64,000 bases of DNA from a virus (IMGVR_UViG_2799113095_000002), one strand, 5' to 3'; counted from the stretch's first letter, positions 37,458-62,683 are shown. Program-made: numbers and translations. The notes: generated by a model from the letters alone, not told the origin.

Positions 37458-37551
37458 GACACCCCCTTCGGCAACCAACTGTGTGATTGCCAGCACACTA
37501 CAGGAGCAGTAGTGGGTTCCGCAGGGGGAGTTGCCAGGGGTGCGGTGTTCG

Positions 37552-45961: not shown

Positions 45962-45989
45962 TACCGCTCCCCTTCCATCTTGTCGTTGT

Positions 45990-49820: not shown

Positions 49821-50272
49821 CGGGCTGCCGCCTCGGCCACAGAGCTGAGCAGCGTCGCAACCGCGCGCGTCAGGTTGCTGCCACCTATGCCGTAGCCGCG
49901 CTCCAGTCGCCCGGCGGCTGCCGCGTACATCGAGGCGTCGGTATCGCGTGGCCCTTTGTGTGCAACCCGTGGGACCTGAACGACCACATGCCCTTCCTCG
50001 GCCAACATCTCTCGAATGCATGCGACCACGCTTCCGGCATCACCGCCCAGTTCCAGTTCCTCAGCGGCGGCGCCGGTCAACACTTCCCAGATTCCCTCTG
50101 GTGGTGCGACGTTCGGCGTATCCGGCTCCGTCTCGAACTCGCGGCCTTCGTTCCGGTGCCCGAGCGGGCAGTGGAACGGGTGCCCGCTGAGCCACAGCGG
50201 CACACCGAAGTAGGTGTCGCAGTGGTCGCAGATCACCGCTTCCAGAACGAGTTTCACTTTCAGTGTCGTCAT
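49817..50272 (-). CDS. hypothetical protein with N-terminal Cys/His cluster
   Basis: MTTLKVKLVLEAVICDHCDTYFGVPLWLSGHPFHCPLGH.... ORF 49817..50311 trimmed to M14. Confidence 0.4.
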   Translation of the reverse strand: MTTLKVKLVLEAVICDHCDTYFGVPLWLSGHPFHCPLGHRNEGREFETEPDTPNVAPPEGIWEVLTGAAAEELELGGDAGSVVACIREMLAEEGHVVVQVPRVAHKGPRDTDASMYAAAAGRLERGYGIGGSNLTRAVATLLSSVAEAAAR

Positions 50273-50466
50273 GCGCATTCTCCTGCGTGCTGGCACCAGC
50301 AGTTGGGGCATATGTCCCGTATGTCGGTGGGGGTTACTGGGTTTGGGCAGTTGGTGTGTACGAGGGTGTCGTCGTCGTAGCGGACTTCATCGCCAGGGCG
50401 GATCGGGTCGTCTCCGTATTCGCACCAGCCCCCGAACTCCGCACGGAATGGGCGGCTGCTGCTCAT
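50269..50466 (-). CDS. small Cys-rich protein
   Basis: 65-aa ORF containing CPNPVTPTDIRDICPNCWCQHAGEC. Confidence 0.35.
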   Translation of the reverse strand: MSSSRPFRAEFGGWCEYGDDPIRPGDEVRYDDDTLVHTNCPNPVTPTDIRDICPNCWCQHAGECA

Positions 50467-50750
50467 CGCCGGAGTCCGATGTTGTCTCCGGCGTCACCGA
50501 GGCCTAGGAGGTACTGGAGGCCGGGGTTGTCGTAGAGGTTGAATGTCATGGTCACGCGGTTCATCAGGTGGACGTTGTGCCCGCGTAGAGCGCGGTGGCG
50601 GACCGCGAACCGCTCGGCTTGCTTGAGACCGTCTCGGCAGGCGGGGAACTCCCACGTGGCTTTCACTTCATGGCCGTAGTCCTCGTCCTTGGTGGTGGGG
50701 CAGTCCTGGCACTCGGCGACCCATTTCCGCGCTTCCGGCTCGGGGTTCAT
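50463..50750 (-). CDS. small hypothetical protein
   Basis: ORF 50463..50849 trimmed to MNPEPEARKWVAECQDCPT (ATGA overlap). Confidence 0.35.
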   Translation of the reverse strand: MNPEPEARKWVAECQDCPTTKDEDYGHEVKATWEFPACRDGLKQAERFAVRHRALRGHNVHLMNRVTMTFNLYDNPGLQYLLGLGDAGDNIGLRR

Positions 50751-50935
50751 GGCTGTTCCCCGTACCCGGCGATGTGATCGGCGGCGGCCTGCGTCAGCGC
50801 TTCCAGTAGGTCCACGGTCTCGCCGAGCTGCTTGTCGGTGGTGCCCCACTGCATCCAGCCGAGCGGTGCGATCTGGAACTTGCGGGTCACACCATCGGTG
50901 GTGGTGATTTGTCCGCGTATCAGCTGGACCTTCAC
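50747..50935 (-). CDS. small hypothetical protein
   Basis: ORF trimmed to a GTG at 50935 that overlaps the upstream stop (GTGA). Confidence 0.3.
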   Translation of the reverse strand: MKVQLIRGQITTTDGVTRKFQIAPLGWMQWGTTDKQLGETVDLLEALTQAAADHIAGYGEQP

Positions 50936-51291
50936 GGGTACATCCCCAGCACCCGGTACGTGCGCGTCACGTGGCGGGAGACGCCATCCCAGTGCAGATG
51001 ACCCATGGCGCACGCCTGGCACACCCAAAGCGTTTCCGGGGCGGTCAGCTGGTCCATGCTGCGAGGGCACAGCTCGCAGGTCACCTTGATGACCGCACCC
51101 ACCGTTGGCCGCTGCTCCGCCGTCTGCCCGGCTCCCGGTTCATCGGCAGGGGTGACGGTGGCGCGCAGACCCGTTATCCACGCGAGCAGTTGCTGGCCCT
51201 CCGCGTTCTCGATGGTGTCTGCGGCGCGGCGGACAGCTTTCGCCGCGTACCGGGCTCCCACCTCAAGAAGTTCTGCGAGATTGCTTGCCAT
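50932..51291 (-). CDS. hypothetical protein
   Basis: 119-aa ORF containing CELCPRS...CQACAMGH. Confidence 0.4.
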   Translation of the reverse strand: MASNLAELLEVGARYAAKAVRRAADTIENAEGQQLLAWITGLRATVTPADEPGAGQTAEQRPTVGAVIKVTCELCPRSMDQLTAPETLWVCQACAMGHLHWDGVSRHVTRTYRVLGMYP

Positions 51292-51571
51292 GCTTGGTAT
51301 CTCCTAGTAGTCGGCGCTGGCGTCGGTTCAGCCCAAACGGTGACTGCTGCTCCCGTCTCCGGGTCGTGGGCTGCCGGCGGGGAATCGGACGGAACGTGGC
51401 CTTGGTCTGGTCGGTGGCCGGGTCGTACACCGCCGAGACGGGCGCGTAGTAGGCGCCGTGTAGGTCGGGGCCGAATGGGTGGGTGTCGGCCAGGATGTGT
51501 GCGGCGATGTCGCCCCGGTAGTTGGCGACGTTGCGGGTGGCGCCGGGGAACAGGTCTGCGAACTCAGTCAT
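51263..51571 (-). CDS. hypothetical protein with basic C-terminus
   Basis: 102-aa ORF. Confidence 0.35.
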   Translation of the reverse strand: MTEFADLFPGATRNVANYRGDIAAHILADTHPFGPDLHGAYYAPVSAVYDPATDQTKATFRPIPRRQPTTRRREQQSPFGLNRRQRRLLGDTKHGKQSRRTS

Positions 51572-51948
51572 CAGGAGGCCGCCTTCCGGCTGCCCCAGAG
51601 ATGCTGGATTTCATCGACGCTGGCGCGATGTTGGTAGGCGTCCCCGGGGCAAGCCTCCACCAACACTTCCTTGCCCCAGCGCTTCTCACACTTAGTGCCC
51701 CAGCGTCGGACCTTCTCCACTTCGGCGGACTCGGGGGCCAGCGAGTCCAGGAACCGGTGCTGGTCGAGTAGAAACTTCTGGCAGAAGTCCTTAGCCCTCG
51801 GGACCTGGTTGATGGTGATCGGTCCGCCGGTCATGAACCCGAGGAGCGCTTGCACTTCGCTGACCTTGCATAGCGCGCCTTCGGGTAGCCCGGCGGCGAC
51901 GGTCAGTACGGCAGCGAGCGGGAACCGTTGCTTGCGTGCGCGGCTCAT
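51571..51948 (-). CDS. hypothetical protein
   Basis: 125-aa ORF. Confidence 0.4.
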   Translation of the reverse strand: MSRARKQRFPLAAVLTVAAGLPEGALCKVSEVQALLGFMTGGPITINQVPRAKDFCQKFLLDQHRFLDSLAPESAEVEKVRRWGTKCEKRWGKEVLVEACPGDAYQHRASVDEIQHLWGSRKAAS

Positions 51949-52157
51949 TCGGTCCTCCAGGTGGGGTCGCCGATGAATGGGGCTTTTGCCTCTACGGGCG
52001 GCCCGGCGATGTATGCGGATTCAGCTAGCAGCTCGAACACGGCGAGGGAAGCGTTGAGCTGTGCCTCCGCGATGAGCGGAGCTGACTGTGCCTTGGGGAG
52101 GCCCTGCGCCTCTTCGTAGAGACGCAGGGCTTCCTCATGGTGTTCGGTAGCGGACAC
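51945..52157 (-). CDS. small helical hypothetical protein
   Basis: 70-aa ORF. Confidence 0.35.
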   Translation of the reverse strand: MSATEHHEEALRLYEEAQGLPKAQSAPLIAEAQLNASLAVFELLAESAYIAGPPVEAKAPFIGDPTWRTE

Positions 52158-52159
52158 GT

Positions 52160-53014
52160 CTACCGGCTGTACTCGTTGCTGAACGGCTGAACCGGCTCAG
52201 GTGCGGGGCCATACGCGACGGGCAAACTGTCGGTGATCTTCTCGACCTCTGCGTCGAACGCCGCATCAACGACTTCCTGTGCCCGGTCGAGCTTGTATCC
52301 GAACGCGACGCCTTGCGGCCCGAGTCGGTACATGAAGTTCGCCAACAGCTCGTAACGCGCGCCGCGCTCGTAGATCGGGAGCCTCAGCGTGAGTACCTGC
52401 GGGATCTCGATAGTCCCGGCGGTTCCGCCGCCCGCATCCGAGGTCTCCTCGACGTACTCGAACTGAACCTCGCCATTGGCGATATCCCGAGCCGACTTGA
52501 ACGAGAGGGACCGCTTGGCCTGAAACTTCCGAACGATCTCCACCAGGTCGGCCGCCGGGGGGTTGTAGATCTCGGAGAGCCCATCCTGGAGGTGGTCAGC
52601 GAACCTAGCCTGAGGCAGGAACTCACCGTCGAGCTGGGACCAGTGCTGCCACTCACGGGAATGCTTCAAATGCAGCGCTATCCGGTGATCACCCCAACCC
52701 TCGTAATTGAGGATCGCGGTCACCCGGTTGCTTGCGCGGTCGGCGAACCCGAGCGCGTCAAGCTGCTGGACCTTACCCAGAAGCAGGTTCAAGCTATCCG
52801 CATCGAGAACCGCAGTAGTCCCGCGCTGGCGGCGCGGATTCGGCAGGTACTTCTCCAGCGAATGAAACTGCTGGGTCTCGTCATTTCGGACCGTGTACGT
52901 GAAAACGTCCGCTGTATCAGGAGATACGGCGTCCACGCGGTCAGCGGCCAGCCGGGCAATATCGGCTGCCGCATCGACCTCCGTACGGGAACTGGTGTCG
53001 GTGAATGATGCCAT
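52160..53014 (-). CDS. hypothetical protein (284 aa)
   Basis: Long unbiased ORF; no motif recognised. Confidence 0.45.
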   Translation of the reverse strand: MASFTDTSSRTEVDAAADIARLAADRVDAVSPDTADVFTYTVRNDETQQFHSLEKYLPNPRRQRGTTAVLDADSLNLLLGKVQQLDALGFADRASNRVTAILNYEGWGDHRIALHLKHSREWQHWSQLDGEFLPQARFADHLQDGLSEIYNPPAADLVEIVRKFQAKRSLSFKSARDIANGEVQFEYVEETSDAGGGTAGTIEIPQVLTLRLPIYERGARYELLANFMYRLGPQGVAFGYKLDRAQEVVDAAFDAEVEKITDSLPVAYGPAPEPVQPFSNEYSR

Positions 53015-53389
53015 TTACTGGGCTTCCTTTCTGGTGTTGTCCTCGGCGGGTACCGGGGTGGGTACGGCTTGGATGGAGTTGAAATCGAGTTGGTTCGGGT
53101 CCGATCGGGTGGGGTTGCCGTCTTTGTCCACGAACCACAGTGAGCGCGTCCGGTCCGGCTTCGGGAGCTTGGGCGTCACATCGTCGTCAATGATCAGCAT
53201 CGGCGTCTTCTTCTCCTGCGACACAACCAAAGTCAGCGTGAGGGAGCCCTTCTTGCCGGTGGCTTTCACCGCCGCTAGAAGATCGTGGAGACCCTTGGAC
53301 AACTCGTCATGGACACGGCCCTTGTTGAGTTCCTGAAGGAACGCGGCGAACGGGCGAACAACCTTCTCGTCCTCGTCTGGATCAGCCAT
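53015..53389 (-). CDS. hypothetical protein
   Basis: 124-aa ORF. Confidence 0.4.
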   Translation of the reverse strand: MADPDEDEKVVRPFAAFLQELNKGRVHDELSKGLHDLLAAVKATGKKGSLTLTLVVSQEKKTPMLIIDDDVTPKLPKPDRTRSLWFVDKDGNPTRSDPNQLDFNSIQAVPTPVPAEDNTRKEAQ

Positions 53390-53726
53390 GGGTCACCGCC
53401 GTTCCGTCCGCCGTGCCCTTCTCTGAATCCTTCACTGGCGGAACCCATCCGGCATTCATGAAACGGACCATGGTTTCCCTGAACTCCGCCGTGTTCTCAC
53501 CGAACGCTGCACCGACCTGTGCCTTAGCAGCGACGTTGGACAACAGGTAGGCAGCCCGCTTGGGGAGCTTCCCCTCTTCGGCCAGGGCCTCAATTTTCCC
53601 GGCCGCGCTCTCCGCGATCTTGAGGACTGTAGTGATCATCGGTTCGGTGGCGACATCGAACTTGGCTGCTCTGGCATATGTTTCGGATAGGGGCGGTAGC
53701 CCCGGAGGTAATTCATTTCCGTACAT
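53382..53726 (-). CDS. hypothetical protein
   Basis: 114-aa ORF. Confidence 0.4.
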   Translation of the reverse strand: MYGNELPPGLPPLSETYARAAKFDVATEPMITTVLKIAESAAGKIEALAEEGKLPKRAAYLLSNVAAKAQVGAAFGENTAEFRETMVRFMNAGWVPPVKDSEKGTADGTAVTHG

Positions 53727-53753
53727 CGGACTGTTCTCCTTCTGGGTTGGGTG

Positions 53754-54641
53754 TTATTTGGTTGGGGCGGGGATCGTGGCGAGAGCGCTAGTACCGGGCC
53801 AGCAGCCCCACGGGGACATGCCTTTATCGAGTGCCTTGGTGATGCAGTTCTGAACAATCACGTTGGGGTCGTTGGATACAGACGAGGCGAGGATGCGGTT
53901 CGCTTCCGCCTGTTCGGTGGCCGTCTTCTTCGCCTGCTCGGCCTTGGCGGTGTTCGCGCGTTCCGCGTTCAGCTCATTGATACGAGCTTCGGTGCCGTCG
54001 TCGTAGTCGATGGTGGGCACGGCTACGTCGAGGATGTCCACCTGCTCACCGACAAGCTTCCGCAGCTTCTCGGAGGTCTCCTTGGCGAATGTCTCCAGCG
54101 GTAAGCCGTTGGCCCACTTGGTCGCCAGTGGGTCCAGCTTGGAAAACACGTCATTGAGCGCGACCTGCAAGTTCCTGGTGATGAGGTTGGTTCGGACGTT
54201 GTCGAATGATCGGTACTGGACGTACAGCTCATCGGCGGCATCCTGTTTGATCTGCCAGCGCACGGACACATCCGCATCGGCGGTGGATGAGTTACCGAGT
54301 CTGACCTTGATCCGGTGGTCCCCTTCGTACTTGTCGATCTGGACGGCGGCGTCCATCTCATCGACCGTTGCCCAAGGCCTCTTCCAGTGCAGCCCGTTGG
54401 AAAGTGTTTCCCCGGAGGGCTTTCCGAACACGGTTTCGATGCCGACTTTTCGGGTTCCGACGACAGTGAAGCAGCCCAGCAAAAGGACGACGACAGCGAC
54501 TACGAGGGCAATACCTCCGGCGACGAGCGAAACGTAGGGGCCTTCGGCATCCCGGTCGATTCGATGGGCGACGAAGCCGCCGCCACATAGGGCCACGGCG
54601 ATGAGGCCGAAGATCAGGAACGTGACAAATTCCCAGGACAT
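53754..54641 (-). CDS. SPFH/band-7 (prohibitin-like) domain membrane protein
   Basis: N-terminal TM helix, then GIETVFGKPSG...VDEMDAAVQID...VRW typical of the SPFH domain. Coiled-coil Ala/Glu-rich C-terminal part. Confidence 0.55.
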   Translation of the reverse strand: MSWEFVTFLIFGLIAVALCGGGFVAHRIDRDAEGPYVSLVAGGIALVVAVVVLLLGCFTVVGTRKVGIETVFGKPSGETLSNGLHWKRPWATVDEMDAAVQIDKYEGDHRIKVRLGNSSTADADVSVRWQIKQDAADELYVQYRSFDNVRTNLITRNLQVALNDVFSKLDPLATKWANGLPLETFAKETSEKLRKLVGEQVDILDVAVPTIDYDDGTEARINELNAERANTAKAEQAKKTATEQAEANRILASSVSNDPNVIVQNCITKALDKGMSPWGCWPGTSALATIPAPTK

Positions 54642-54645
54642 GTGC

Positions 54646-55740
54646 TTACTTCTCCTTCTCGGTATTGGTTAGGACGGCGATGATTTCGGCGGCCAGGTCG
54701 TCGGACAGCGAGTCGATGTCCGTGACTTCTTGGGATACGCACTGGGACACGAACTCCAGTGCTTCCTTCATGCCCTGCTTGGTGCGGAGCTGGTACTTCT
54801 CCGCCGTGAGCAGGTCACGGACTTTCTGGATGGTGGCGCTGTCGGCTTTGCCGCTGCCGGGCGGCGGGGTGTTGTCGTCACCGCCGTCCGGCGCGGTGGC
54901 CTCTTGCGCGTCGGTTGCTGTTGGGGCTGGCTCCGGCTCGGGGGCAGGGGCGGGCTCAACGTTGGTGTCCGGTTGGGTGGGGTCTGGCCCCTGTTCCGCC
55001 GTCTCTGCCTGCCGGCGTTCCTCGATGGCGGCTTGCAGACCGGCGAGGCCCTTCTGTTGCGCAGGTGGCCGGGTGACCCGCTGCACGGAAACCGTCTCCG
55101 AGAGTTGTAGCTCTTCAACGGAATGGCTCATACCGAGGAGCACGTCCTGGAAGAGGATGCGGCAGACCTCCGCTTGCGCCTTCGCACGCAGCATCTCAGT
55201 GGGCTGCTTCTTGTAGAGGTCGTTGCTGGTGAAACCTGCGGTGGTGGCGCGGTCGATGGTCCACTCGGATGCGGCGGGCCTACCATCTCGACGCCCGGCC
55301 CACACGACGCGCTCCGGTGATGCCGCGACCTCCCAGACACCATCGCCGTCTGGACCGCCAGTTCCGTTGTTGTCGATCCATCGCCGTACCTGCGCGACCA
55401 TGGTCTTGCTGTAGACACCGGGCGAGCCGTGGACAGTGAACACGTTCTGCGCCGCCTGCATCGCGGACATACCGAGCTCGGCGCCGTACATAATGGCTGC
55501 GGCCAAGTCCTGTGCAGCCTTGTCCCCGAGCGGTTCCCGTTGATTCCTTGGGATATGTGACTGCTGGAAATGCTGAGGCACCATCGATGTTTTCGACAGC
55601 GACTTCGCCATGTTGTAAGCGGTCTGGAGTGCTCGGGCTTCGGCCTCCATACGCTTGATTGCAGGTGTGGTCGGCTCATCCATGAACACCTCCGGCACTG
55701 GCGGTGCTTCCACTTGGACGATGTCGGCGGTTTCGGACAT
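54646..55740 (-). CDS. RecT-like single-strand annealing protein (putative)
   Basis: ORF 54646..55851 trimmed to MSETADIVQV, which has an AGAAGGAGAG RBS. Lies immediately downstream of a YqaJ/RecE-type exonuclease. Acidic, Pro-rich C-terminal tail. Confidence 0.45.
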   Translation of the reverse strand: MSETADIVQVEAPPVPEVFMDEPTTPAIKRMEAEARALQTAYNMAKSLSKTSMVPQHFQQSHIPRNQREPLGDKAAQDLAAAIMYGAELGMSAMQAAQNVFTVHGSPGVYSKTMVAQVRRWIDNNGTGGPDGDGVWEVAASPERVVWAGRRDGRPAASEWTIDRATTAGFTSNDLYKKQPTEMLRAKAQAEVCRILFQDVLLGMSHSVEELQLSETVSVQRVTRPPAQQKGLAGLQAAIEERRQAETAEQGPDPTQPDTNVEPAPAPEPEPAPTATDAQEATAPDGGDDNTPPPGSGKADSATIQKVRDLLTAEKYQLRTKQGMKEALEFVSQCVSQEVTDIDSLSDDLAAEIIAVLTNTEKEK

Positions 55741-55762
55741 GCTGGCTCTCCTTCTGGTTGTT

Positions 55763-56656
55763 TCACTGGACCGCGTACAGGGAAACCGATCCGCCCCTGC
55801 CTGGTTGTCTGCGGGCGACACGGACACCGCCCGCTGTCGCGTACTGGGCATCGCCCATGAGGTCGAGAATCTTTGTCTTGGCTCCGCGTTCGCGGTTGGT
55901 GGCCTCCTTCGCTTCGGCTACTGCGGTGAGATAGTCAGTGCCGTCTTCGGGGGTGATCTGGACTGTGATTCCGCGCGCGATGTCGGGGTGCTGCTCGCGC
56001 ACAAATTCATAGGTGGCGACCGAGTTGTCGAGCGGTGGCGGCTCCGTCTCATCGAGTGAGTCCCAGAACTCCTTGCACGCCTTGATGATCGCGGCGGCTG
56101 CGGCCATGTTGTACGGGATGACGTACGTGTGGTGTTGGAACCGCGGACCCATGACGACGAGGTGCGCAGGTTCTTTCGTCAGCCCCGAAAACACCTGCTG
56201 GGTAAGAACTTGCGTGAAATAGTCTGGTGGAGCTTCATCGGTGAAGTCGTCGCCCCACTCCTCCAATGAGCGCGCGATCTTGAACTCCACGTCGCGGCGG
56301 CGGCGGCCTCGGCGTCCGCGTCGGTCGAGCGTGACCAGGTACGGGAAACCGAACTTCTCCGGGTCACCGACGTACTGGACCTCGCCGGGTGACAGCTGCC
56401 AGCCGGGGTTGTCGTACCGCCACAGTTCGGCGAGGGCGAGCTCGAACGCGTGCCCTACACGGAATATGTCCTTCTCTGGTTCCGGCGCGGCGAGGCCCTT
56501 CATCCTGTGCCACAGGCAGTATGGCGAGTCCCACCGGGAGAGGCCCATGATCGCGGCGACCTTGGAAGGGCTGATGAGCATTGAGTGCTCCGGCGAGCCA
56601 GGGGCGATGAATCCCGGTTCGCCGGGCCGGTAGATACCCGGCTTGATATCGGTCAT
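55763..56656 (-). CDS. YqaJ/lambda-exonuclease-like recombination exonuclease (RecE-like)
   Basis: ORF 55763..56794 trimmed to MTDIKPGIYRPGEP (ATGA overlap). Has a YqaJ-like N-terminal region (SPSKVAAIMGLSRWDSPYCLWHRMKG). Confidence 0.6.
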   Translation of the reverse strand: MTDIKPGIYRPGEPGFIAPGSPEHSMLISPSKVAAIMGLSRWDSPYCLWHRMKGLAAPEPEKDIFRVGHAFELALAELWRYDNPGWQLSPGEVQYVGDPEKFGFPYLVTLDRRGRRGRRRRDVEFKIARSLEEWGDDFTDEAPPDYFTQVLTQQVFSGLTKEPAHLVVMGPRFQHHTYVIPYNMAAAAAIIKACKEFWDSLDETEPPPLDNSVATYEFVREQHPDIARGITVQITPEDGTDYLTAVAEAKEATNRERGAKTKILDLMGDAQYATAGGVRVARRQPGRGGSVSLYAVQ

Positions 56657-57021
56657 CGCGCGTTCTTCCCTGCTGGTAGGTAGTTGTCGTGAAGCCAGAG
56701 GTCCGGCTGGCGGTTGGGGCGGTTGCGCACCGGCACCGCCGCTGGAGGTATGTGGGGGTGTCCGGGGATGGAGAGGCCAACGGATTGCGCCCATTCGGGG
56801 CTAACGGTGACTTCCCGGTGGTCGGCGGAGCAGAGGTCAATGATGTTGGCGGGATGCCATTTGCCGCCCTGTGAGCGGTTGATGCGGTGGTGTTTCTCAG
56901 TGGCCTTTTCCTTGCCGCACCACTCGCACCAGCCCATCGAGCGCCCGGCGACGTGGGCGCGGGTGAGGGGTTCATCCCAGTTGGTGATGAACTCTTCGTC
57001 CCAGATCGACGGCGCTGTCAC
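56653..57021 (-). CDS. HNH endonuclease
   Basis: CEWCGKEKATEKHHRINRSQGG...NIIDLCSADHRE carries the HNH motif with a Cys pair. Confidence 0.65.
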   Translation of the reverse strand: MTAPSIWDEEFITNWDEPLTRAHVAGRSMGWCEWCGKEKATEKHHRINRSQGGKWHPANIIDLCSADHREVTVSPEWAQSVGLSIPGHPHIPPAAVPVRNRPNRQPDLWLHDNYLPAGKNAR

Positions 57022-57221
57022 TGAACCGGCCTGAGGACGATGGACGATTTGGCCGGCAAGACATCTACGTGTAGAACGTCGTTGCTATCGAGAGGCGTGG
57101 CGCACTCCCATTGATCGAGGCCGTCCGCGTCTTTCCCGACATAGGCGAGTTCGCAAATGATCTTCCGGCCATTGGCTTTAGTGATGTAGACGCCTTGCGG
57201 GCGCTCTGGTTGCTCGCTCAT
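57018..57221 (-). CDS. small hypothetical protein
   Basis: 67-aa ORF. Confidence 0.35.
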   Translation of the reverse strand: MSEQPERPQGVYITKANGRKIICELAYVGKDADGLDQWECATPLDSNDVLHVDVLPAKSSIVLRPVQ

Positions 57222-57433
57222 ACGTCGTCCGGTTCGGGTTCGGTGTGGGCGGGTTTGGCTGTGAAGTTCCGCGCGAATTTCCTGCCAGCTGCGGCGGCGA
57301 CAGCCTTTGTGGTGTATGGGCCGTAGTTGAAGTGTTCATTCCCCTTGGGGCTGGTCCACTTCCACGCGAACCCTTCGTTGTCCTTCCGGGGGAACGCTTC
57401 GACGGTGCCAGGCACCGGCTTGGCTTTGGTCAC
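57218..57433 (-). CDS. small hypothetical protein
   Basis: 71-aa ORF. Confidence 0.35.
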   Translation of the reverse strand: MTKAKPVPGTVEAFPRKDNEGFAWKWTSPKGNEHFNYGPYTTKAVAAAAGRKFARNFTAKPAHTEPEPDDV

Positions 57434-58221
57434 GCTGCGCCTTCCTTCCTCGTCGCGGCCTTGATCCGTTGCAGCTGCCGTTCAACGGATTCCGGCTTCA
57501 CGTCGAGCCTCTGCGCGAGCTGATAGGTATCGGTGACGCCCATGTCTTGGAGTTCTTCCAGCCGCTCTGTGGCGGTGCTGAAATTGCTGCCGTAGATCGG
57601 CTGCACGGCGGGGTCATCGATGGTGTCTTCGTCCCACTGGAGAGGTAGCGGCCAACCCTTTTGGGTTGCTCGCTGGCGGGCGACACGGCTCGGGCCTTCG
57701 GTCATTTGCAGCTTGTTGAACAGGTCGGCTATCGCTTGCGCACGTTGCGCCGTGACGTTCTTGGCTCTTCCGGAGTACAAGCCGCTGAGGGCGGTTGGGT
57801 CTGAGAGCCCCAGACTGGCCGTGATCTGCGGGCCGCCGTACCCGATCCGGGCGAGGGCGCGGAGGCGACGCACTGAACCCGTCGAATCCACGAGTGCTGA
57901 TGCGCTTGCGAGATCGACAGCGGACGCGGGTACAGCGAGGCCCATGATTAGTTCGTGGGTGCGGCGGTCGATCCAGCGGCGTTCGGCAGCAGCTAATCGC
58001 ATGATGGTGCTGCGCGATAGCCCGGTGAGGCTCCGTATCTGCCGCGTCCCGATACCGGCGGCTTGAAGTTGTGCAAGCCGTTCGCGGGCTTCGTCTACGG
58101 AGTGCCTTCCGTTGTCGAAACGTCCGTAAGCCCGCAGGCGGTAGACATGCCGTTTCCGGTGGGTGTCACAGAGGCCATGACCTACAACCGGCCTTTTGCA
58201 GAGTCGGCACTGCGCCCTCAC
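57430..58221 (-). CDS. DNA-binding protein with N-terminal Cys4/His zinc ribbon and HTH
   Basis: GTG start. CRLCKRPVVGHGLCDTHRKRH, then HTH-like IRSLTGLSRSTIMRLAAAERR. Confidence 0.45.
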   Translation of the reverse strand: MRAQCRLCKRPVVGHGLCDTHRKRHVYRLRAYGRFDNGRHSVDEARERLAQLQAAGIGTRQIRSLTGLSRSTIMRLAAAERRWIDRRTHELIMGLAVPASAVDLASASALVDSTGSVRRLRALARIGYGGPQITASLGLSDPTALSGLYSGRAKNVTAQRAQAIADLFNKLQMTEGPSRVARQRATQKGWPLPLQWDEDTIDDPAVQPIYGSNFSTATERLEELQDMGVTDTYQLAQRLDVKPESVERQLQRIKAATRKEGAA

Positions 58222-58354
58222 GGATTACCCTTCCGCCCCGAGAAGAAGTAGTGCGAGAGCATCGCCGCGACGATGGCGGGTACCAGCCATCCGCCCTGCG
58301 CTGTCACTGCGCCGACGCCCGCGAACACGAAAGAGGCTGCCAGTGAAGCCCAGC
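58222..58354 (-). CDS. small single-TM peptide (about 44 aa)
   Basis: MRQGWASLAASFVFAGVGAVTAQGGWLVPAIVAAMLSHYFF..., found by hand. GTGA overlap with the downstream start. Confidence 0.25.
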
Positions 58355-58360
58355 CCTGCC

Positions 58361-58702
58361 TCATGATTCGACCGCCAGAGGGTTGTACGCGTTGCCTCGT
58401 GCGAACCGGCGGCGACGCTTCTGTGCGTAGTTGAGGCGCGACTGGCGGGCGATGGCCGCAGTGTTTCCGCGCCGGGCGCGGCGGGCGTGGCGGTTCTTCT
58501 TCCGCCGTCGCTCTACCTCCTCTACGGGAACGGACCCCGCGTACACGTTGGAGCCTTGGAGTGCGAGGAGTACTGACTTCTCAAACTTGCCTGGCTCCAG
58601 TGGCTTTGGTGTGGGCTCCAGCTGGTATATGCCGGTCTCTGGCTTCTTGGCTGCTTCGGTGCGCGCGTTCTGGTCGCGGAGCAGCTTGTACATATCAGGC
58701 AT
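58361..58702 (-). CDS. hypothetical basic protein
   Basis: 113-aa ORF with an Arg/Lys-rich C-terminal half. Confidence 0.4.
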   Translation of the reverse strand: MPDMYKLLRDQNARTEAAKKPETGIYQLEPTPKPLEPGKFEKSVLLALQGSNVYAGSVPVEEVERRRKKNRHARRARRGNTAAIARQSRLNYAQKRRRRFARGNAYNPLAVES

Positions 58703-59267
58703 GGGGATCGGCTCCTATTCCCTTCTTGTCGCGCTCGTACGCGCGGCGGAAGCAATCTCGGGTGGCCCGCGTGTCGCCGAGCGCCGTGTGTTCGGCGGTG
58801 TTGGTGACACCCAGCAGCTCGCAGCACCTCGCAAGGCCGGGTGGGTCGGCGGGGTCGATCTGGAAAAGACCTGCGGTGTAGGCAGATAGGTCCGAGAGCC
58901 GATACCGCCAAGGCTCTTTCGTCCGGGTCTGCGCACGCCAGACGTGCTCGTAACCGGCTATCAGCATGTCCGCGTCAAATCGCGGGTTAGCACCGCCGAG
59001 GGTCTTCCCGTCCAGCAGTTCGAACAAGTCCTGGTAGCAGTTCAGCGTCGCGGTATCGGTGAGCTGATCGCGGTAGAGGGCACGCTCGTAGTACCGGTTG
59101 ATACGCATCGACTCTGGGTCCGCGTAGCCCAATGCCTCCGCCGAAATGAATGGGACGAAATGGATTTCGCGGCCCGTCTTCAAGTGGATCGCCGCGACCT
59201 CCACCGGCAGGTGCCGGTTGCGGTCCAATCCGGTTGTCTCAACGTCAACAACCCATAGCTCGCTCAT
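58695..59267 (-). CDS. DnaQ-like DEDDh 3-prime to 5-prime exonuclease
   Basis: ORF 58695..59450 trimmed to MSELWVVDVETTGLD (Exo I motif). HTALGDTRA (Exo III) near the C-terminus. Confidence 0.65.
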   Translation of the reverse strand: MSELWVVDVETTGLDRNRHLPVEVAAIHLKTGREIHFVPFISAEALGYADPESMRINRYYERALYRDQLTDTATLNCYQDLFELLDGKTLGGANPRFDADMLIAGYEHVWRAQTRTKEPWRYRLSDLSAYTAGLFQIDPADPPGLARCCELLGVTNTAEHTALGDTRATRDCFRRAYERDKKGIGADPHA

Positions 59268-59563
59268 ATGGTCCTCCAGCGGGCCGACTTCACGTAGAGG
59301 TCGAGAAGCGGCTGCTGCCAAGGGCAGTAAGCCTCCACGGACAGCCGGACAATGCGGCCCGCGTCGGGGTAGCTGAACCCTCGCTCGTGGAGTGCATTCC
59401 CGATGCGGTTGATGCCGTTGAAAGTTGGATCGCCGCTGATCGCGATGCACAGCGCGCCACCGACATCATTCGCGGCATCGTTCACCGGGTCGGCAGCCGC
59501 CGGGGCGGCGCAGGAGACCACCACCGCGAACGCGACGAAAGTCGCCAAGACTATGCGTATCAT
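59264..59563 (-). CDS. secreted small protein (signal peptide), DUF732-like
   Basis: ORF 59264..59689 trimmed to MIRIVLATFVAFAVVVSCAAPAAADP, which reads as a signal peptide. Two Cys. About 99 aa. Size and pattern recall mycobacterial DUF732. Confidence 0.4.
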   Translation of the reverse strand: MIRIVLATFVAFAVVVSCAAPAAADPVNDAANDVGGALCIAISGDPTFNGINRIGNALHERGFSYPDAGRIVRLSVEAYCPWQQPLLDLYVKSARWRTI

Positions 59564-59700
59564 GCGGCAGCGCTCCAGATCTCGGCTGGTGTGCCGTGCC
59601 TTGCGGACAGTTCGTCCCAGATCGGATTCAGGCTTGGCGGCGCCGGTTCGGGTGCCGGTTGGATACCGAACAAGACACGCCGCAACCATCGGTGCTTCAT
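59562..59700 (-). CDS. small hypothetical peptide (about 46 aa)
   Basis: MKHRWLRRVLFGIQPAPEP..., found by hand. GGGAGA RBS and ATGA overlap with the downstream start. Confidence 0.25.
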
Positions 59701-59724
59701 GTTGTCTCCCTGTGCTGGTTGGTT

Positions 59725-60081
59725 TTACGTGAGGGTGAGCTGCTGGGAACCGCCCAGCCGGTAGTGCATTTCGCCGATACCGGCGGCGGTGACGTGGATG
59801 ATCTGTGGGCGCTCCTTGGTCACACCGGTAGGTGTTTCGTACTCGCCGCCGGGCCGCAGAGCGATGTACCCGAGGGTCACGCTCTCCGGGTATGCGTGCC
59901 AGCGTTGATCGCGGCCCCGCGTGATCCAGTCCTCGTTAGCCATTGCCTCGAACAACTGGTCGCGCCCGATGTTGATGGCAGGGTCTACGGACAGCAGGCG
60001 TGCGGCCTCGGATACGGGGTAGTCCCCCGTGAGATCCGTGAGATGCGCTGGCAGCTCAGGGCGTTGAAGGATGCGCGCCAT
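59725..60081 (-). CDS. hypothetical protein
   Basis: ORF 59725..60267 trimmed to MARILQRPELPAHLTDL. Confidence 0.4.
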   Translation of the reverse strand: MARILQRPELPAHLTDLTGDYPVSEAARLLSVDPAINIGRDQLFEAMANEDWITRGRDQRWHAYPESVTLGYIALRPGGEYETPTGVTKERPQIIHVTAAGIGEMHYRLGGSQQLTLT

Positions 60082-60085
60082 GGTG

Positions 60086-60190
60086 ATCACCTGCTGGCGA
60101 GGACGTTCGTCATCAGGACGGAGCCGAAGAACACGCCGAAGGCGAGGGCCCAGAGGACAGGCACCAGGGTCTCCCGGAGCCAGGGCACCA
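60086..60190 (-). CDS. possible small TM peptide (about 39 aa)
   Basis: MFRETVVPWLRETLVPVLWALAFGVFFGSVLMTNVLASR lies in the 124-nt gap. TGATG overlap with the ParB-like stop. Confidence 0.2.
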
Positions 60191-60205
60191 CGGTCTCGCG
60201 GAACA

Positions 60206-61066
60206 TCACGCGAGCACCTGCTGTGTGGTGCCGATAACCTTGGGGAAGTTCGTTCCGTTCCACCCACCCTTGGGCTGCTGGAGCTTCGCGATGTGGCTGC
60301 CGGTCATCCAGCGGTTGAACGCGACAATGAAATAGCCGATGGCTTCGCGGTCAGAAATCTTGAAGCCCTCGCCGCGCACGCGGTCTAAACGGTTACGCAG
60401 GGCGAGGATTGGCGAGCCTGCCTCTAGCCCAGCACCGTCGAGTACTCGCTGGAAGAACACGCTGGTTGTCTCAACCCCATGCCAGTACGCGATGCCTGCG
60501 AACACCGCACGCACCAGGCCGGGCCGGGCCTTCACGCGATTGAAGGCGCCACCCCTGCGGATGAGCTCGAACAACTCGGGATGCTCGGTGGCCCACTGCA
60601 CAACATCCGTGGTCGTGATAGCGCCGGAGGCCTTATCGGTGTACAGCCAGCCGCGCTGCCACACCATGAACGTCTTGACAGCGGAAGCATCCGAGTTCGT
60701 GGAGTTGATACCGGCGAGGTTCAGCTGATCGGATGCGCTCCGCCGGAGGCCCTGGTCCATGGTGCTCTGCGATTCCGCCGGCAGGCCCCGAACCACAAGC
60801 ATTTCCACGGGCACGCCGCACAGGGAGATCGCGTGGAGGCGGTGCTGCCCGTCGAGAAGTGAGCCGTCCAGGCTGAACTTGATCGCCTCGCCGTTGAACT
60901 GCCAGCGGCCCGCCTCCATGTCGGCGGCTAGCTGGAGAATCTTCTTCTCGCTGAGGGGCCGGTTACGGACGTTGAACTTGAGGTACTCGTCGGCGAGCTT
61001 GCCGTCGATCCTCTCGACATCGGACGTGACCATTTGGTTCCTCCGAAGTGGGATAGCATTCGACAC
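60206..61066 (-). CDS. ParB-like nuclease domain protein (second copy of the ParB/Srx fold in the window)
   Basis: NVRNRPLSEKKILQLAADMEAGRWQFNGEAIKFSLDGSLLDGQHRLHAI matches the ParB N-terminal domain, including the DGQHR core. Confidence 0.55.
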   Translation of the reverse strand: MSNAIPLRRNQMVTSDVERIDGKLADEYLKFNVRNRPLSEKKILQLAADMEAGRWQFNGEAIKFSLDGSLLDGQHRLHAISLCGVPVEMLVVRGLPAESQSTMDQGLRRSASDQLNLAGINSTNSDASAVKTFMVWQRGWLYTDKASGAITTTDVVQWATEHPELFELIRRGGAFNRVKARPGLVRAVFAGIAYWHGVETTSVFFQRVLDGAGLEAGSPILALRNRLDRVRGEGFKISDREAIGYFIVAFNRWMTGSHIAKLQQPKGGWNGTNFPKVIGTTQQVLA

Positions 61067-61087
61067 TGAGGTGCTCCTTCTGCTGGT

Positions 61088-61969
61088 TTACGAGGGCAAC
61101 TTCTCGATGACGCGTTGCAGCGCGTCTCGCGCGCGGATCAGATCGCTTGCGTAGATGGCGATTTGGTCCGCGTTCTTGTCGAAGCGGTCGTCGGCTGCCA
61201 GTGCCTCTACCCGCTTCACCGCCTTCGTCATGGCCGTGGTGGCTTCGGCGAAGGAGTCTGTGATCGGCTTCCGGCGGGGGATGGGCACGGGAACCGGGAC
61301 GGGGGCGGCGGGTGTGGGGAGCACGCAGGACTGGTGCTCGTCGCGCCAGTCCTGGAGGGCCAAGCGGTCTTCGTCTGCCGCCCCGGAGTAGAGGGCCATG
61401 GTGGATCCGCACACGCACTTGGCGAAGCTCTCCACGGTCTCGGAGGTGGCGGCAGCGGGGGGAGCGCTCACCTCCGAGACCGTGGGAGCGCCCGTGGCCG
61501 CCTGCGCGGGGGGAGGCGCAGCATTGGCAGCCGCCGGGGGCTCATTCGGGAGGTCTGGGACAACCGTCAGCGTGGGCCGTACCGGCTGGGTCGGCTGGTA
61601 GGTCTTGCCGTTGGTGCCGGTGACGGGTCCTACTGAGTCATTTGACTCAGTAGGGGGTGCAGGGAGTTCGCGTTGCACGGTGCTCTGGCTGACCCCGGTT
61701 GCCGCCGCGATAGCGCGGGTGGAGAGCCCGGAGTCGCGGAGGGACAGCACTACCTCGGCGCGGGTCTCGCGGGGCAGCTTGAACCAGGTGGAGGCGAACT
61801 CGCGCTCGCAGTACACGTCCCAGGACGGGTATCCGAGGACAGCCCATGCCCGCTGGGTGTATGCCTTAGCTATGAGGTCCCAGACGCGATCGACGGAGCT
61901 GCGGATGCTCTCGGTGAGTGCCCGCGCATCAGTCGGCGACATCGCGGTCACGGAGACGGCGGACATCAT
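61088..61969 (-). CDS. HTH DNA-binding protein with Pro/Ala-rich linker
   Basis: HTH SLRDSGLSTRAIAAATGVSQSTVQREL; 293 aa. Confidence 0.5.
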   Translation of the reverse strand: MMSAVSVTAMSPTDARALTESIRSSVDRVWDLIAKAYTQRAWAVLGYPSWDVYCEREFASTWFKLPRETRAEVVLSLRDSGLSTRAIAAATGVSQSTVQRELPAPPTESNDSVGPVTGTNGKTYQPTQPVRPTLTVVPDLPNEPPAAANAAPPPAQAATGAPTVSEVSAPPAAATSETVESFAKCVCGSTMALYSGAADEDRLALQDWRDEHQSCVLPTPAAPVPVPVPIPRRKPITDSFAEATTAMTKAVKRVEALAADDRFDKNADQIAIYASDLIRARDALQRVIEKLPS

Positions 61970-62220
61970 GCGGCCTTGGAGGCGGAGTCGGGCAGAAGAG
62001 AGGTGAGGGAGATGCCCAGAAACCGGGCGATGCCGTCGAGGTCGGCGAGGGTGAAGCTCAATTCCCCTGTGAGTCGGCGACTTACGTACTGCCGGGTGCG
62101 CCGGAGGGGAACGGCGGCGTCAGTGGCGGTGAAGCGGCGGCGGGCGAGCTCGGCTCGGATGGTCGCACCAACCATTTCGTCCAACGTCAGAACGTTACTC
62201 ACAGCGTAACGATAACTCAC
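61966..62220 (-). CDS. Cro-like small DNA-binding protein, divergent from the repressor
   Basis: 84-aa ORF (GTG at 62220, or ATG about 62175). Helix-turn-helix-like RRTRQYVSRRLTGELSFTLADLDGIARFLGIS. Leftward, opposite the repressor. Confidence 0.45.
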   Translation of the reverse strand: MSYRYAVSNVLTLDEMVGATIRAELARRRFTATDAAVPLRRTRQYVSRRLTGELSFTLADLDGIARFLGISLTSLLPDSASKAA

Positions 62221-62290
62221 AGCAAGTAACGGCGCTACCGTTTGGAGATACGGCGCGCCGGTTTAAGTGAGGTGTGAGTTACTTTTCCGG
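62190..62290. promoter_or_regulatory. divergent promoter/operator region with four copies of GTGAGTNAY in both orientations
   Basis: gttactcac (62193), ataactcac (62211), gtgagttac (62273) and a partial gtgaggtgt. Putative leaderless repressor promoter: -10 TATCAT 7 nt upstream of ATG 62346, with TTTCAC as -35 at 17-bp spacing. Confidence 0.4.
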
Positions 62291-62336
62291 TCGTTTAGTT
62301 AGCTTTAACTTTCACCACGACCGCTAGACGGTTATC

Positions 62337-62645
62337 ATGAGCGCTATGAGTACGTTGTATTCGGTTCCGAACGAGACCCTGTCCCAGACGGTGGCCCGCC
62401 GAATCCGGGGGCTGCTCGGGGAGAAGCGCATCTCTCAGGCCAAGTTCGCCAAGATGCTGGAGACGAACACCGCGAGCATGTCGCGGCGGCTCTCAGGCGA
62501 GTACCCCATCGACCTGGCTGAGGTTGAAAAGTATGCAGCCGCACTGGGGGTGTCCCCAATGCGGCTGTTGACTGGTCGGCCTGACGGCAGTGGCCCCGAT
62601 GGACCGGATGTGCGCCCGAAGGGATTCGAACCCCTAACCTTCTGA
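62337..62645 (+). CDS. XRE-family HTH immunity repressor whose 3-prime end is fused to host tRNA-Arg sequence (integration-truncated form)
   Basis: HTH TLSQTVARRIRGLLGEKRISQAKFAKMLETNTASMSRRL. The last 11 codons (RPKGFEPLTF, stop) are encoded by the 3-prime half of the tRNA-Arg gene on the opposite strand. Confidence 0.7.
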   Translation: MSAMSTLYSVPNETLSQTVARRIRGLLGEKRISQAKFAKMLETNTASMSRRLSGEYPIDLAEVEKYAAALGVSPMRLLTGRPDGSGPDGPDVRPKGFEPLTF

Positions 62646-62683
62646 TCCGTAGTCAGATGCTCTATCCGTTGAGCTACGGGCGC
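62611..62683 (-). tRNA. tRNA-Arg (anticodon ACG)
   Basis: Minus strand reads GCGCCCGUAGCUCAACGGAUAGAGCAUCUGACUACGGAUCAGAAGGUUAGGGGUUCGAAUCCCUUCGGGCGCA, a cloverleaf with anticodon loop CUACGGA. No encoded CCA. Confidence 0.8.

What the first reader, a model, noticed from the sequence alone, without database searches (positions are those of the whole stretch)
62337..62683. Repressor reading frame ends inside the host tRNA-Arg: integration-dependent immunity architecture
The HTH repressor ORF (plus strand) continues 35 nt into the 3-prime half of the minus-strand tRNA-Arg gene. Its last 11 residues (RPKGFEPLTF) are tRNA-templated. This fits a phage whose attP core lies inside the repressor gene, so that integration swaps the native C-terminus (often a degradation tag) for host-derived sequence and stabilises the repressor. 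That mechanism is established for several mycobacteriophage clusters. The exact crossover point cannot be seen without the unintegrated phage or an empty site.
Basis: partly seen in the sequence, partly recalled or inferred. Interest (0 to 1): 0.65.

Follow-up and report, generated by a model that had tools for sequence, protein, structure and literature searches.

The report
Prophage repressor truncated at tRNA-Arg junction
A Mycobacterium abscessus prophage has its integration site inside its own repressor gene, so inserting into the host tRNA-Arg gene cuts 41 residues off the repressor; this is real, but it is a further example of a published mechanism at a published site.

Summary
ORF 62337-62645 (+) encodes a 102-aa Cro/C1-type HTH protein that ends inside tRNA-Arg(ACG), 62610-62683 (-).

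- **Boundaries.** Seven empty M. abscessus sites share the window's sequence only from 62610 rightwards. Free-phage (attP) contigs of the same phage are 99.99% identical over 10.3 kb and match only up to 62644. The common core is therefore 35 bp, 62610-62644, inside the ORF.
- **Stop codon.** TGA at 62643-62645 is TG from the core plus one host-only A. In attP the codon is TGG, and the frame runs 41 codons further (143 aa, ending ...EPAVA).
- **Other parts.** In attP a tyrosine integrase lies 1.2 kb downstream of the repressor gene. A cro-like gene lies divergently upstream in the window.

This is integration-dependent immunity. It is established for mycobacteriophage clusters G, I, N and P and for M. 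abscessus prophage clusters, including MabK at the site the paper calls attB-1. The MabK GenBank record carries the same core and a note placing attP within the immunity repressor.

What is new is modest: a repressor family with no relative among deposited Mycobacterium phages, and two reverse genes between repressor and integrase. Instability of the long form is inferred, not shown. Interest is low.

The parts
62337..62645 (+). Prophage (truncated) form of the immunity repressor gene: 102 aa, Cro/C1-type HTH. An alternative start lies at 62346.
   Evidence: ORF. Pfam HTH_3, HTH_26 and BetR all score above their cut-offs. Residues 1-102 are identical to the first 102 of the 143-aa viral form P0001.
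62610..62644 (.). attR common core, 35 bp: GTGCGCCCGAAGGGATTCGAACCCCTAACCTTCTG. It is shared by attB, attP, attL and attR.
   Evidence: Host-only homology (empty sites, and other prophages at the same site) starts exactly at 62610. Phage-only homology (attP contigs) ends exactly at 62644, with zero extra identical bases on either side.
62643..62645 (+). Junction-made stop codon TGA: TG from the core and A from host-only tRNA sequence. The corresponding codon in attP is TGG (Trp).
   Evidence: frame 1 translations of attR and attP.
62610..62683 (-). Host tRNA-Arg(ACG). Its 3' half is rebuilt by the phage core and is identical to the tRNA at empty sites. It is transcribed towards the repressor gene.
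   Evidence: ARAGORN and Rfam tRNA at 71.6 bits. Five of the seven empty sites show 0 mismatches from 62610 to the window end.
61966..62220 (-). Divergently transcribed cro-like HTH gene (84 aa), the first gene of the leftward early operon.
   Evidence: ORF. Pfam HTH_31 at E 4.8e-5, 24 bits, which is below the cut-off of 27. The same gene sits in the same position in the attP contigs.
62195..62281 (.). Candidate operator half-sites: three copies of TWACTCACA (62195-62203 +, 62213-62221 +, 62273-62281 -) in the repressor/cro control region.
   Evidence: These are the only three matches in 64 kb, against 0.26 expected, and no shuffle out of 100 reached three. The inverted pairs are listed. Binding has not been tested.
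62311..62338 (+). Promoter-like site for the repressor gene (TTCACC, 16 nt, TATCAT). The -10 overlaps the first ATG.
   Evidence: This is a consensus match only.
62536..62567 (-). Stable 14-bp hairpin followed by a weak T run, on the tRNA strand and inside the repressor ORF. It may stop tRNA read-through that would run antisense to the repressor gene (speculative).
   Evidence: Terminator-like hit. Folding gives -43.7 kcal/mol with z -4.74. All 14 pairs are kept in 4 relatives, one of them through a change on both sides. No such hairpin was found in the two other repressor families at this site.
1..62609 (.). Right-hand 62.6 kb of a prophage of about 75.6 kb. Tail genes are at the left of the window and early genes at the right. 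The integrase, the repressor 3' remnant and attL lie about 13 kb beyond the window start.
   Evidence: Sipho_Gp37 tail protein at 2304-4124. Logan contig L013 (75,600 nt) is identical to window 1-14124. Its left end is L019, and L030 continues the same sequence.

Best explanation
This is the attR junction of a temperate siphovirus of about 75.6 kb, a relative of M. abscessus cluster MabK and M. smegmatis cluster Y, integrated into the tRNA-Arg(ACG) gene of Mycobacterium (Mycobacteroides) abscessus. It uses integration-dependent immunity.

**Free phage.** The 35-bp attP core sits inside the repressor gene. The phage encodes a 143-aa repressor made of an HTH domain, a Gly/Pro/Asp linker, 11 core-encoded residues and a 41-residue tail ending ...EPAVA.

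**Integration.** A tyrosine integrase 1.2 kb downstream recombines this core with the identical 3' half of tRNA-Arg. The tRNA is rebuilt. The repressor gene is separated from its last 41 codons and from the integrase gene, and it terminates at a TGA made of two core bases plus the first host-only base. The result is the 102-aa protein seen in the window.

**Consequence, by analogy with phage BPs and the M. abscessus prophages already described.** The long form is unstable or inactive, so infection defaults to lytic growth. The truncated form is stable. It binds operators in the repressor/cro intergenic region and maintains lysogeny and superinfection immunity. Excision restores the tail.

**Shown versus inferred.** Shown here are all four att sites, the exact core, the two protein forms and the gene layout. 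Inferred are the instability of the 143-aa form, repression by the 102-aa form, and the identity of the operators.
For: - **Core defined from both sides.** Empty attB sites and unrelated prophages at the same site match the window only from 62610 on. The attP contigs L030 and L031 of the same phage (99.99% over 10.3 kb) match only up to 62644. The attL copy on L019 (its 6,671-nt overlap with L030 is 99.985% identical, and its 1.4-kb overlap with L013 and L015 is 100%) has host flank, then core, then the repressor 3' remnant.
- **Two protein forms.** They are 102 aa and 143 aa, identical over the first 102 residues.
- **Layout in attP.** The order is cro-like gene, repressor gene, two reverse genes, then the tyrosine integrase (PF00589, E 1.5e-21).
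- **Frame constraint.** Only frame 1 both stays open through the core and stops immediately in host DNA. Frame 2 has a TAA inside the core, and frame 3 stays open for 57 host-coded codons.
- **Convergence.** Three unrelated repressor families at this site all read the core in frame 1, and every prophage-form copy seen (this one, the L010/P0004 family, and the one inferred for prophiGD43A-5) ends ...VRPKGFEPLTF*; phage Bipper, known only as the free-phage form, reads the same 11 core residues in that frame.
- **Tails of relatives.** Viral tails end -GAA (L021), -DAA (prophiGD43A-5, Bipper) and -AAA (PhrostedPhlake).
- **GenBank.** Record MW584167 carries a note beginning 'The location of the phage attachment site (attP) within the immunity repressor', and its two ends carry the same core.
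- **Literature.** Dedrick et al. 2021 (PMC8092301) describe MabK at attB-1 with a stop codon formed by the first bacterial base and the tRNA transcribed towards the truncated repressor. BPs gp33 goes from 136 to 103 aa, and the long form is degraded through a C-terminal tag (PMC4557955).
- **Operators.** Candidate operator repeats occur only in the control region.
Against: - No stability or immunity data exist for this protein.
- The tail of this particular phage ends -PAVA, not the canonical -AA.
- The integrase ends ...AVSLVP, with no tag. Dedrick et al. report the same for MabK.
- The repressor and integrase genes are separated by 1.18 kb containing two reverse-oriented genes, so co-transcription of the integrase from the repressor promoter, as in BPs, is doubtful.
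- The window itself lacks attL and the integrase gene. These come from other assemblies of the same phage, and the only attL copy seen (L019) has a host flank matching Mycobacterium sp. D16R18 rather than the M. abscessus flank.
- A single-sequence AlphaFold model of the 143-aa form was too poor (mean pLDDT 41.8) to say whether the tail is disordered.
Confidence: 0.85

Rival explanations
1. Integration-dependent, but not through a degradation tag. The 41-residue tail would inhibit the repressor in another way, for example by blocking oligomerisation or DNA binding or by recruiting a partner. Alternatively, the tail's conserved part would be constrained mainly at the DNA level, as the integrase-binding P' arm of attP.
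For: - The first roughly 24 tail residues (WLGVPKSPASS-E/D-G/S-AITDLGEYR) are conserved among P0001, P0002 and L021, while the extreme C-termini differ (-PAVA, -PAVA, -AGAA).
- An 11-bp perfect inverted repeat, AACCCCTAACC / GGTTAGGGGTT, flanks the right end of the core in attP. That is the pattern expected for integrase core-type sites.
Against: - Close relatives and other families at the same site end in -AA.
- In BPs both forms bind DNA similarly, and the difference between them is proteolysis (PMC4557955).
Confidence: 0.1
2. The overlap is an incidental by-product of integrating at a tRNA 3' end next to the repressor gene. Both forms work equally well and the truncation has no regulatory role.
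For: No functional data exist for this phage. Many phages integrate at tRNA 3' ends with the integrase and repressor genes nearby.
Against: - At least three unrelated repressor families at this core use the one frame that reads through the core and then stops at once.
- The tail has been kept as an open frame of 37-49 codons in diverged relatives.
- Experimental precedent exists in BPs.
Confidence: 0.04
3. ORF 62337-62645 is an Xre-family regulator but not the immunity repressor. The true repressor would lie elsewhere, for example the 98-aa HTH gene near the integrase gene at the attL end.
For: A second HTH gene lies between the repressor and integrase genes in attP, oriented so that it could be expressed from the prophage end (L030 11124-11420).
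Against: - The position is canonical: divergent from a cro-like gene at the head of the early operon, with clustered repeats in between.
- The homologues found in Gordonia phages are annotated as immunity repressors (the weaker Arthrobacter phage matches are annotated only as HTH DNA-binding proteins).
- The attP-in-gene architecture is specific to repressors in all described cases.
Confidence: 0.02

Closest known systems
M. abscessus prophage prophiGD43A-5, cluster MabK, attB-1 (GenBank MW584167; Dedrick et al. 2021, mBio, PMC8092301)
   Same: - Same host species, and the same tRNA-Arg core sequence at both record ends.
- Same reading frame through the core.
- The same junction-made stop, so that the prophage form is inferred to end ...VRPKGFEPLTF*.
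- The viral form has an Ala-rich tail (-ADAA).
- Similar size, about 76 kb.
- The integrase has no tag.
- The record carries a note placing attP within the immunity repressor.

   Different: - The repressor N-terminal HTH domain belongs to a different family. tblastn with the window repressor finds no Mycobacterium phage.
- There the integrase gene follows the repressor gene directly, about 125 bp away. Here they are 1.18 kb apart with two reverse genes between them.
- Overall DNA similarity is only about 77% over about 38% of the structural region.
Mycobacteriophage BPs (cluster G), gp33/gp32 integration-dependent immunity (Broussard et al. 2013, as summarised in PMC4557955)
   Same: - attP lies inside the repressor gene.
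- The prophage form (103 aa) is shorter than the viral form (136 aa).
- The layout is a divergent cro-like gene followed by the repressor and a tyrosine integrase.
- The truncated form is the active one.
   Different: - The repressor sequence is unrelated.
- The tail is 33 aa there and 41 aa here.
- In BPs the integrase gene abuts the repressor gene and is transcribed from the repressor promoter.
- The function of the window system has not been tested.
Mycobacteriophage Bipper (cluster Y, M. smegmatis), gene 51 immunity repressor and gene 50 tyrosine integrase
   Same: - The same 35-bp core is read in the same frame (...AVRPKGFEPLTF then CFV...).
- The tail ends -CDAA.
- A tyrosine integrase lies downstream.
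- The structural genes are about 76% identical to parts of the window.

   Different: - The repressor family is the one found in prophiGD43A-5, not the window's.
- The host is M. smegmatis.
- The tail is 28 aa.
Gordonia phage PhrostedPhlake, gene 44 immunity repressor and gene 43 tyrosine integrase (MK801724)
   Same: - One of the closest sequence relatives of the window repressor among deposited phages, at 41% identity.
- A tRNA-Arg-like core lies inside the gene.
- The tail ends -PAAA.
- The integrase gene is immediately downstream.

   Different: - The host genus is different.
- The core is read in frame 2. That frame is open there because the Gordonia core has CAAA where M. abscessus has CTAA.
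- On integration the stop would fall two codons into host sequence.

Membership tests
Integration-dependent immunity system (BPs type) | The attP common core lies inside the repressor open reading frame. | tested here: met
   The core, 62610-62644, lies within ORF 62337-62645. It was delimited with empty attB sites and with attP contigs of the same phage.
Integration-dependent immunity system (BPs type) | [quoted passage not shown] | tested here: met
   The two forms are 102 aa (window) and 143 aa (P0001 on L030 and L031). The first 102 residues are identical.
Integration-dependent immunity system (BPs type) | The stop codon of the prophage form is supplied at or just beyond the att junction. 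| tested here: met
   TGA is TG (core) plus A (first host-only base). attP has TGG.
Integration-dependent immunity system (BPs type) | A tyrosine integrase lies downstream of the repressor gene in the same orientation in the viral genome, and is separated from it by integration. | tested here: met
   L030 has the repressor gene at 10001-10432 (+) and the integrase gene at 11616-12593 (+), PF00589 at E 1.5e-21. Two reverse genes lie between them. Dedrick et al. describe repressor and integrase genes 'separated by 3 to 5 genes' in some systems.
Integration-dependent immunity system (BPs type) | A divergently transcribed cro-like gene with an intergenic control region. | tested here: met
   The cro-like HTH gene is at 61966-62220 (-). 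Three TWACTCACA repeats occur only in and beside the intergenic region.
Integration-dependent immunity system (BPs type) | The viral form carries a C-terminal ssrA-like (-AA) degradation tag. | tested here: inconclusive
   This phage ends -EPAVA. Close relative L021 ends -AGAA, and prophiGD43A-5 and Bipper end -DAA. The literature accepts non-canonical tags in some members.
Integration-dependent immunity system (BPs type) | The long form is unstable or inactive, and the truncated form is stable and confers immunity. | not testable with these tools
   This needs protein stability and immunity assays.
Integration-dependent immunity system (BPs type) | The integrase carries a C-terminal degradation tag. 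| tested here: not met
   The integrase ends ...ASHAVSLVP. Dedrick et al. report the same absence for MabK integrases, so this feature is not universal in the family.
Cluster MabK M. abscessus prophages (attB-1) | Integration at the tRNA site that the paper calls attB-1, with the same common core. | tested here: met
   Both ends of MW584167 carry the same core, extended by 3 bp. The paper assigns that prophage to attB-1.
Cluster MabK M. abscessus prophages (attB-1) | Overall genome relatedness sufficient for the same cluster. | tested here: inconclusive
   Megablast covers 38% of window 1-25000 at 77% identity, and 10-12% of window 25001-50000. No gene-content measure was computed.
Cluster MabK M. 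abscessus prophages (attB-1) | Same repressor, meaning the same immunity group. | tested here: not met
   tblastn with the 102-aa protein finds no Mycobacterium phage record. The prophiGD43A-5 repressor has a different HTH sequence.
Cro/C1 (Xre) type HTH DNA-binding proteins | A Pfam HTH domain scoring above the curated threshold. | tested here: met
   HTH_3 scores 23.9 against 23, HTH_26 scores 28.2 against 22, and BetR scores 31.1 against 21.6.

The most novel reading that the evidence does not exclude
The repressor coding sequence may carry a second, RNA-level function. The very stable hairpin on the opposite strand (62536-62567), about 45 nt past the tRNA-Arg 3' end, would act as a phage-supplied terminator or processing site for the host tRNA-Ser/tRNA-Arg transcript. 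Without it, that transcript would run antisense into the repressor gene once the phage is integrated. Stable immunity at a convergent tRNA site would then depend on an insulator built into the repressor ORF.
Probability: 0.12. Interest if true: 0.4.

Novelty: new member of a known kind. Interest (0 to 1): 0.2.

Why it matters
- **Cloning the right form.** This adds one more naturally documented attB/attP/attL/attR set and a new repressor (immunity) type to the integration-dependent immunity systems of M. abscessus. Anyone cloning this repressor as a selectable immunity marker, or engineering a lytic derivative of this phage for therapy, must use the 102-aa prophage form and not the 143-aa viral form.
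- **Convergent evolution.** Only one reading frame both stays open through the tRNA-Arg core and stops at once in host DNA. That explains why unrelated repressors converge on the same C-terminal peptide, VRPKGFEPLTF.
- **No change to the mechanism.** None of this alters current understanding of how the system works.

Tried and rejected
- **attL inside the window.** No copy of the core or of any 14-mer or longer from 62450-62720 occurs elsewhere in the window. The 13-mer at 34256 is a T-arm-like motif in a tRNA-like/Y-RNA-like region, not an att site. The prophage runs off the left end of the window.
- **Walking left.** Only proteins encoded in the window may be used for walking, and that reached only about 7.7 kb beyond the window. 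The left end was obtained instead from IMG/VR contigs and from P0001.
- **DNA searches of the phage collection.** Searches with the junction gave mostly phage-borne tRNA-Arg genes.
- **Exact-pattern scans for the attP junction.** The metagenome scan found one contig and the viral scan found three, all already known from earlier calls. The species-representative genome scan found nothing.
- **Structure prediction.** A single-sequence AlphaFold2 model of the 143-aa form had a mean pLDDT of 41.8 and is uninformative about whether the tail is disordered.
- **Primary literature.** Broussard et al. 2013 (PMC3557535) is not held in the library, and PMC3694055 yielded no matching text. The BPs facts are taken from PMC4557955.
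- **Hairpin as a general feature.** The terminator-like hairpin inside the repressor gene was not found in the two other repressor families at this site, so it is not general to the architecture.

Full report
**1. What is in the window**

ORF 62337-62645 (+) encodes 102 aa ending ...GPDGPDVRPKGFEPLTF*. ARAGORN and Rfam place tRNA-Arg(ACG) at 62610/62611-62683 on the minus strand and tRNA-Ser(GCT) at 62731-62820.

The protein is a Cro/C1-type HTH. Pfam HTH_3, HTH_26 and BetR all score above their curated cut-offs. An 84-aa cro-like HTH gene (61966-62220, -) is transcribed divergently and heads a long leftward operon of early genes. Tail genes (Sipho_Gp37 and a tape-measure-sized ORF) lie at the far left of the window. 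Almost the whole window is therefore prophage, with its right end at the tRNA. To the right of the tRNAs lies a host aminotransferase gene.

**2. Host and empty sites**

The aminotransferase protein is found in many M. abscessus assemblies. Seven distinct places (L004, L006-L009, L011, L012) have no prophage. There the tRNA-Arg is preceded by ...cgtcctgcggatga and an AHSA1-family gene. These loci match the window from 62610 to 64000, five with 0 mismatches, L009 with 1 and L008 with 6 in 1391 nt, and share not one further base to the left of 62610.

Two other occupied sites behave the same way. L005 holds a related prophage and L010 holds an unrelated one. The host/prophage boundary therefore lies inside the ORF, 11 codons before its end.

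**3. The unintegrated form of the same phage**

No second copy of the core exists in the window. The prophage is about 75.6 kb, and its left end lies about 13 kb beyond the window start:

- A Logan contig of 75,600 nt is identical to window 1-14124.
- By coordinate arithmetic, that contig starts and ends within the core.

A protein search with a relative's long form returned P0001 (143 aa). Its first 102 residues are identical to the window ORF. They are followed by WLGVPKSPASSEGAITDLGEYRKARRIIRRNTPSRQEPAVA.

P0001 is encoded on five JGI contigs of about 75.6-75.8 kb. L030 matches window 52337-62644 with one mismatch in 10,308 nt. It then continues without a break into the sequence that forms the left end of the prophage (L019 at 99.985%, L013 at 100%). 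This is the contiguous attP of the same phage, and its homology with the window stops exactly at 62644.

L019 supplies the attL copy. Its order is host flank, core, the repressor 3' remnant, two reverse genes, then the integrase gene. Its 20-nt host flank matches the tRNA-Arg-proximal flank of Mycobacterium sp. D16R18 rather than that of M. abscessus. That copy therefore sits in a different host background.

**4. Anatomy of the junction**

The common core is GTGCGCCCGAAGGGATTCGAACCCCTAACCTTCTG, 35 bp, at 62610-62644. The stop codon TGA (62643-62645) is TG from the core plus A, the first host-only base. attP has TGG. Integration is therefore a clean truncation of 41 residues. It adds no host-coded amino acids, and the 11 'tRNA-templated' residues are present in both forms.

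The three frames across the junction behave differently:

| Frame | In the core | In host DNA after the core |
|---|---|---|
| 1 | open | stops immediately |
| 2 | TAA inside the core | not applicable |
| 3 | open | stays open for 57 host-coded codons from the start of the core |

Only frame 1 both reads through the core and stops at once. This explains why unrelated repressors at this core all use frame 1, the prophage forms ending ...VRPKGFEPLTF*:

- the window family
- the L010/P0004 family
- the prophiGD43A-5/Bipper family

In attP an 11-bp perfect inverted repeat (AACCCCTAACC / GGTTAGGGGTT) brackets TTCT at the right end of the core. This suggests that the integrase core sites and the crossover lie there. 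That is an inference.

**5. Layout in the free phage**

The order in L030 is:

1. cro-like gene (-)
2. repressor gene, 143 aa (+)
3. 229-aa membrane-like protein (-)
4. 98-aa HTH protein (-)
5. tyrosine integrase, 325 aa (+), PF00589 at E 1.5e-21
6. DUF732 protein
7. the lysis and tail genes

The integrase ends ...AVSLVP, so it has no -AA tag. Relatives' viral repressors end -AGAA (L021, 151 aa) and -PAVA (P0002, which has the same sequence as the L023 ORF, 139 aa).

**6. Control region**

TWACTCACA occurs three times in the 64-kb window, all within 62195-62281 and one of them inverted. The chance expectation is 0.26. These are candidate operator half-sites. A promoter-like site (TTCACC, 16 nt, TATCAT) ends at 62338. 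Its -10 overlaps the first ATG, so the second ATG at 62346 may be the real start, possibly on a leaderless transcript.

**7. Comparison with what is known**

The architecture is integration-dependent immunity. It was established experimentally for mycobacteriophage BPs, where gp33 is 136 aa in the virus and 103 aa in the prophage, and the long form is degraded through a C-terminal tag. It is also found in clusters G, I, N and P (PMC4557955).

Dedrick et al. 2021 (PMC8092301) describe it in M. abscessus prophage clusters MabB, C, H, K, N and O. For MabK at attB-1 they state:

- The tRNA is transcribed towards the truncated repressor.
- The repressor and integrase genes may be separated by several genes.
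- MabK integrases lack tags.

The MabK record MW584167 (prophiGD43A-5, 76.5 kb) starts and ends with the same core. It carries a note beginning 'The location of the phage attachment site (attP) within the immunity repressor'. Cluster Y phage Bipper reads the same core in the same frame and ends -CDAA.

The window phage is only distantly related to these at the DNA level, about 77% identity over about 38% of the structural region. Its repressor has no detectable relative among deposited Mycobacterium phages. The nearest relatives are Gordonia phage repressors at 30-42% identity. One of the two closest, from PhrostedPhlake, also contains a tRNA-Arg-like core, read in another frame, and ends -PAAA.

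**8. Verdict**

One correction applies: integration truncates the C-terminus rather than swapping it.

What remains inferred is the biochemical consequence, namely instability of the 143-aa form and repression by the 102-aa form. This phage's tail ends -PAVA rather than -AA, and the single-sequence structure model was uninformative.

This is a new member of a well-described kind, at a site and in a phage group where the same arrangement has already been published. Interest is therefore low.

Noticed in passing
window 31849-33549 (-) and 33650-34310: A Ro60/TROVE gene (Pfam TROVE plus vWA_Ro60) lies next to a run of tRNA-like modules. These give only sub-threshold YrlA (Y RNA-like) matches: 37.9 and 33.4 bits against a gathering score of 69. 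ARAGORN calls no tRNA there. Related MabK prophages annotate a 'Ro-like RNA binding protein'.
   Followed up: partly
window 34473-37496 (-): A WXG-type gene (37137-37496), a polymorphic toxin (35219-37231, weak Tox-REase-5 end domain) and a probable immunity gene (34473-35222) sit in the middle of the prophage. In the M. abscessus prophages described in PMC8092301 such cassettes lie next to an att junction.
   Followed up: partly
window 62536-62567 (-): A very stable 14-bp hairpin with a weak T tail lies on the tRNA strand inside the repressor ORF (z -4.74). All its pairs are kept in four relatives, one through a change on both sides. No terminator-like hairpin was found in the two other repressor families at this attB. 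It may terminate tRNA read-through that would run antisense to the repressor gene.
   Followed up: partly
L030 10435-11420 (outside the window; the attL end of the prophage): Two reverse-oriented genes, a 229-aa membrane-like protein with no Pfam hit and a 98-aa HTH protein, are inserted between the repressor and integrase genes in the free phage. After integration they would sit at the prophage end, next to attL and pointing outwards towards the junction. They are candidates for lysogenically expressed genes.
   Followed up: partly
L021/L029 (FVOE01000007.1, 75,091 nt), L023/L027/L028 (Ga0265327_10000434, 75,809 nt), L030, L031: Stand-alone contigs of about 75-76 kb contain the contiguous attP. 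They occur in an M. abscessus isolate assembly and in several JGI samples. The free or circular form of this phage group was therefore abundant enough in those samples to assemble as its own contig.
   Followed up: partly
L032 4001-5390 (M. salmoniphilum GCA_041644795.1, a 533-kb contig): A repressor matching the window's 102-aa form (only an extra Gly in the linker and a start at the second ATG) continues past the core into a different tail (WSVVATCPRCGFQGTSPF, 118 aa). It is followed directly by a different tyrosine integrase, inside a chromosome. This looks like a hybrid junction between two prophages in tandem at the same tRNA-Arg site.
   Followed up: no
L019 6672-6691 and L033 6602-6640: The only attL copy of this phage that was found has a host flank matching Mycobacterium sp. 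D16R18, not M. abscessus. In D16R18 itself the tRNA-Arg core is followed by yet another foreign sequence (AGATATTCG...). The same site is therefore used by other elements in other Mycobacteroides hosts.
   Followed up: partly
P0004 (Logan contig, 1,342 nt) compared with L001 3001-3438: A 108-aa prophage-form repressor is almost identical over about 95 residues to the repressor of Gordonia phage PhrostedPhlake. It reads the tRNA-Arg core in frame 1 (VRPKGFEPLTF*), whereas PhrostedPhlake reads it in frame 2. The frame change occurs within the Gly/Asp-rich linker.
   Followed up: no
window 62333-62348: The promoter-like -10 (TATCAT) overlaps the first ATG of the repressor ORF. The second in-frame ATG (62346) lies 8 nt downstream, and gene callers used it in a relative. 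The repressor may be translated from a leaderless mRNA as a 99-aa protein.
   Followed up: no
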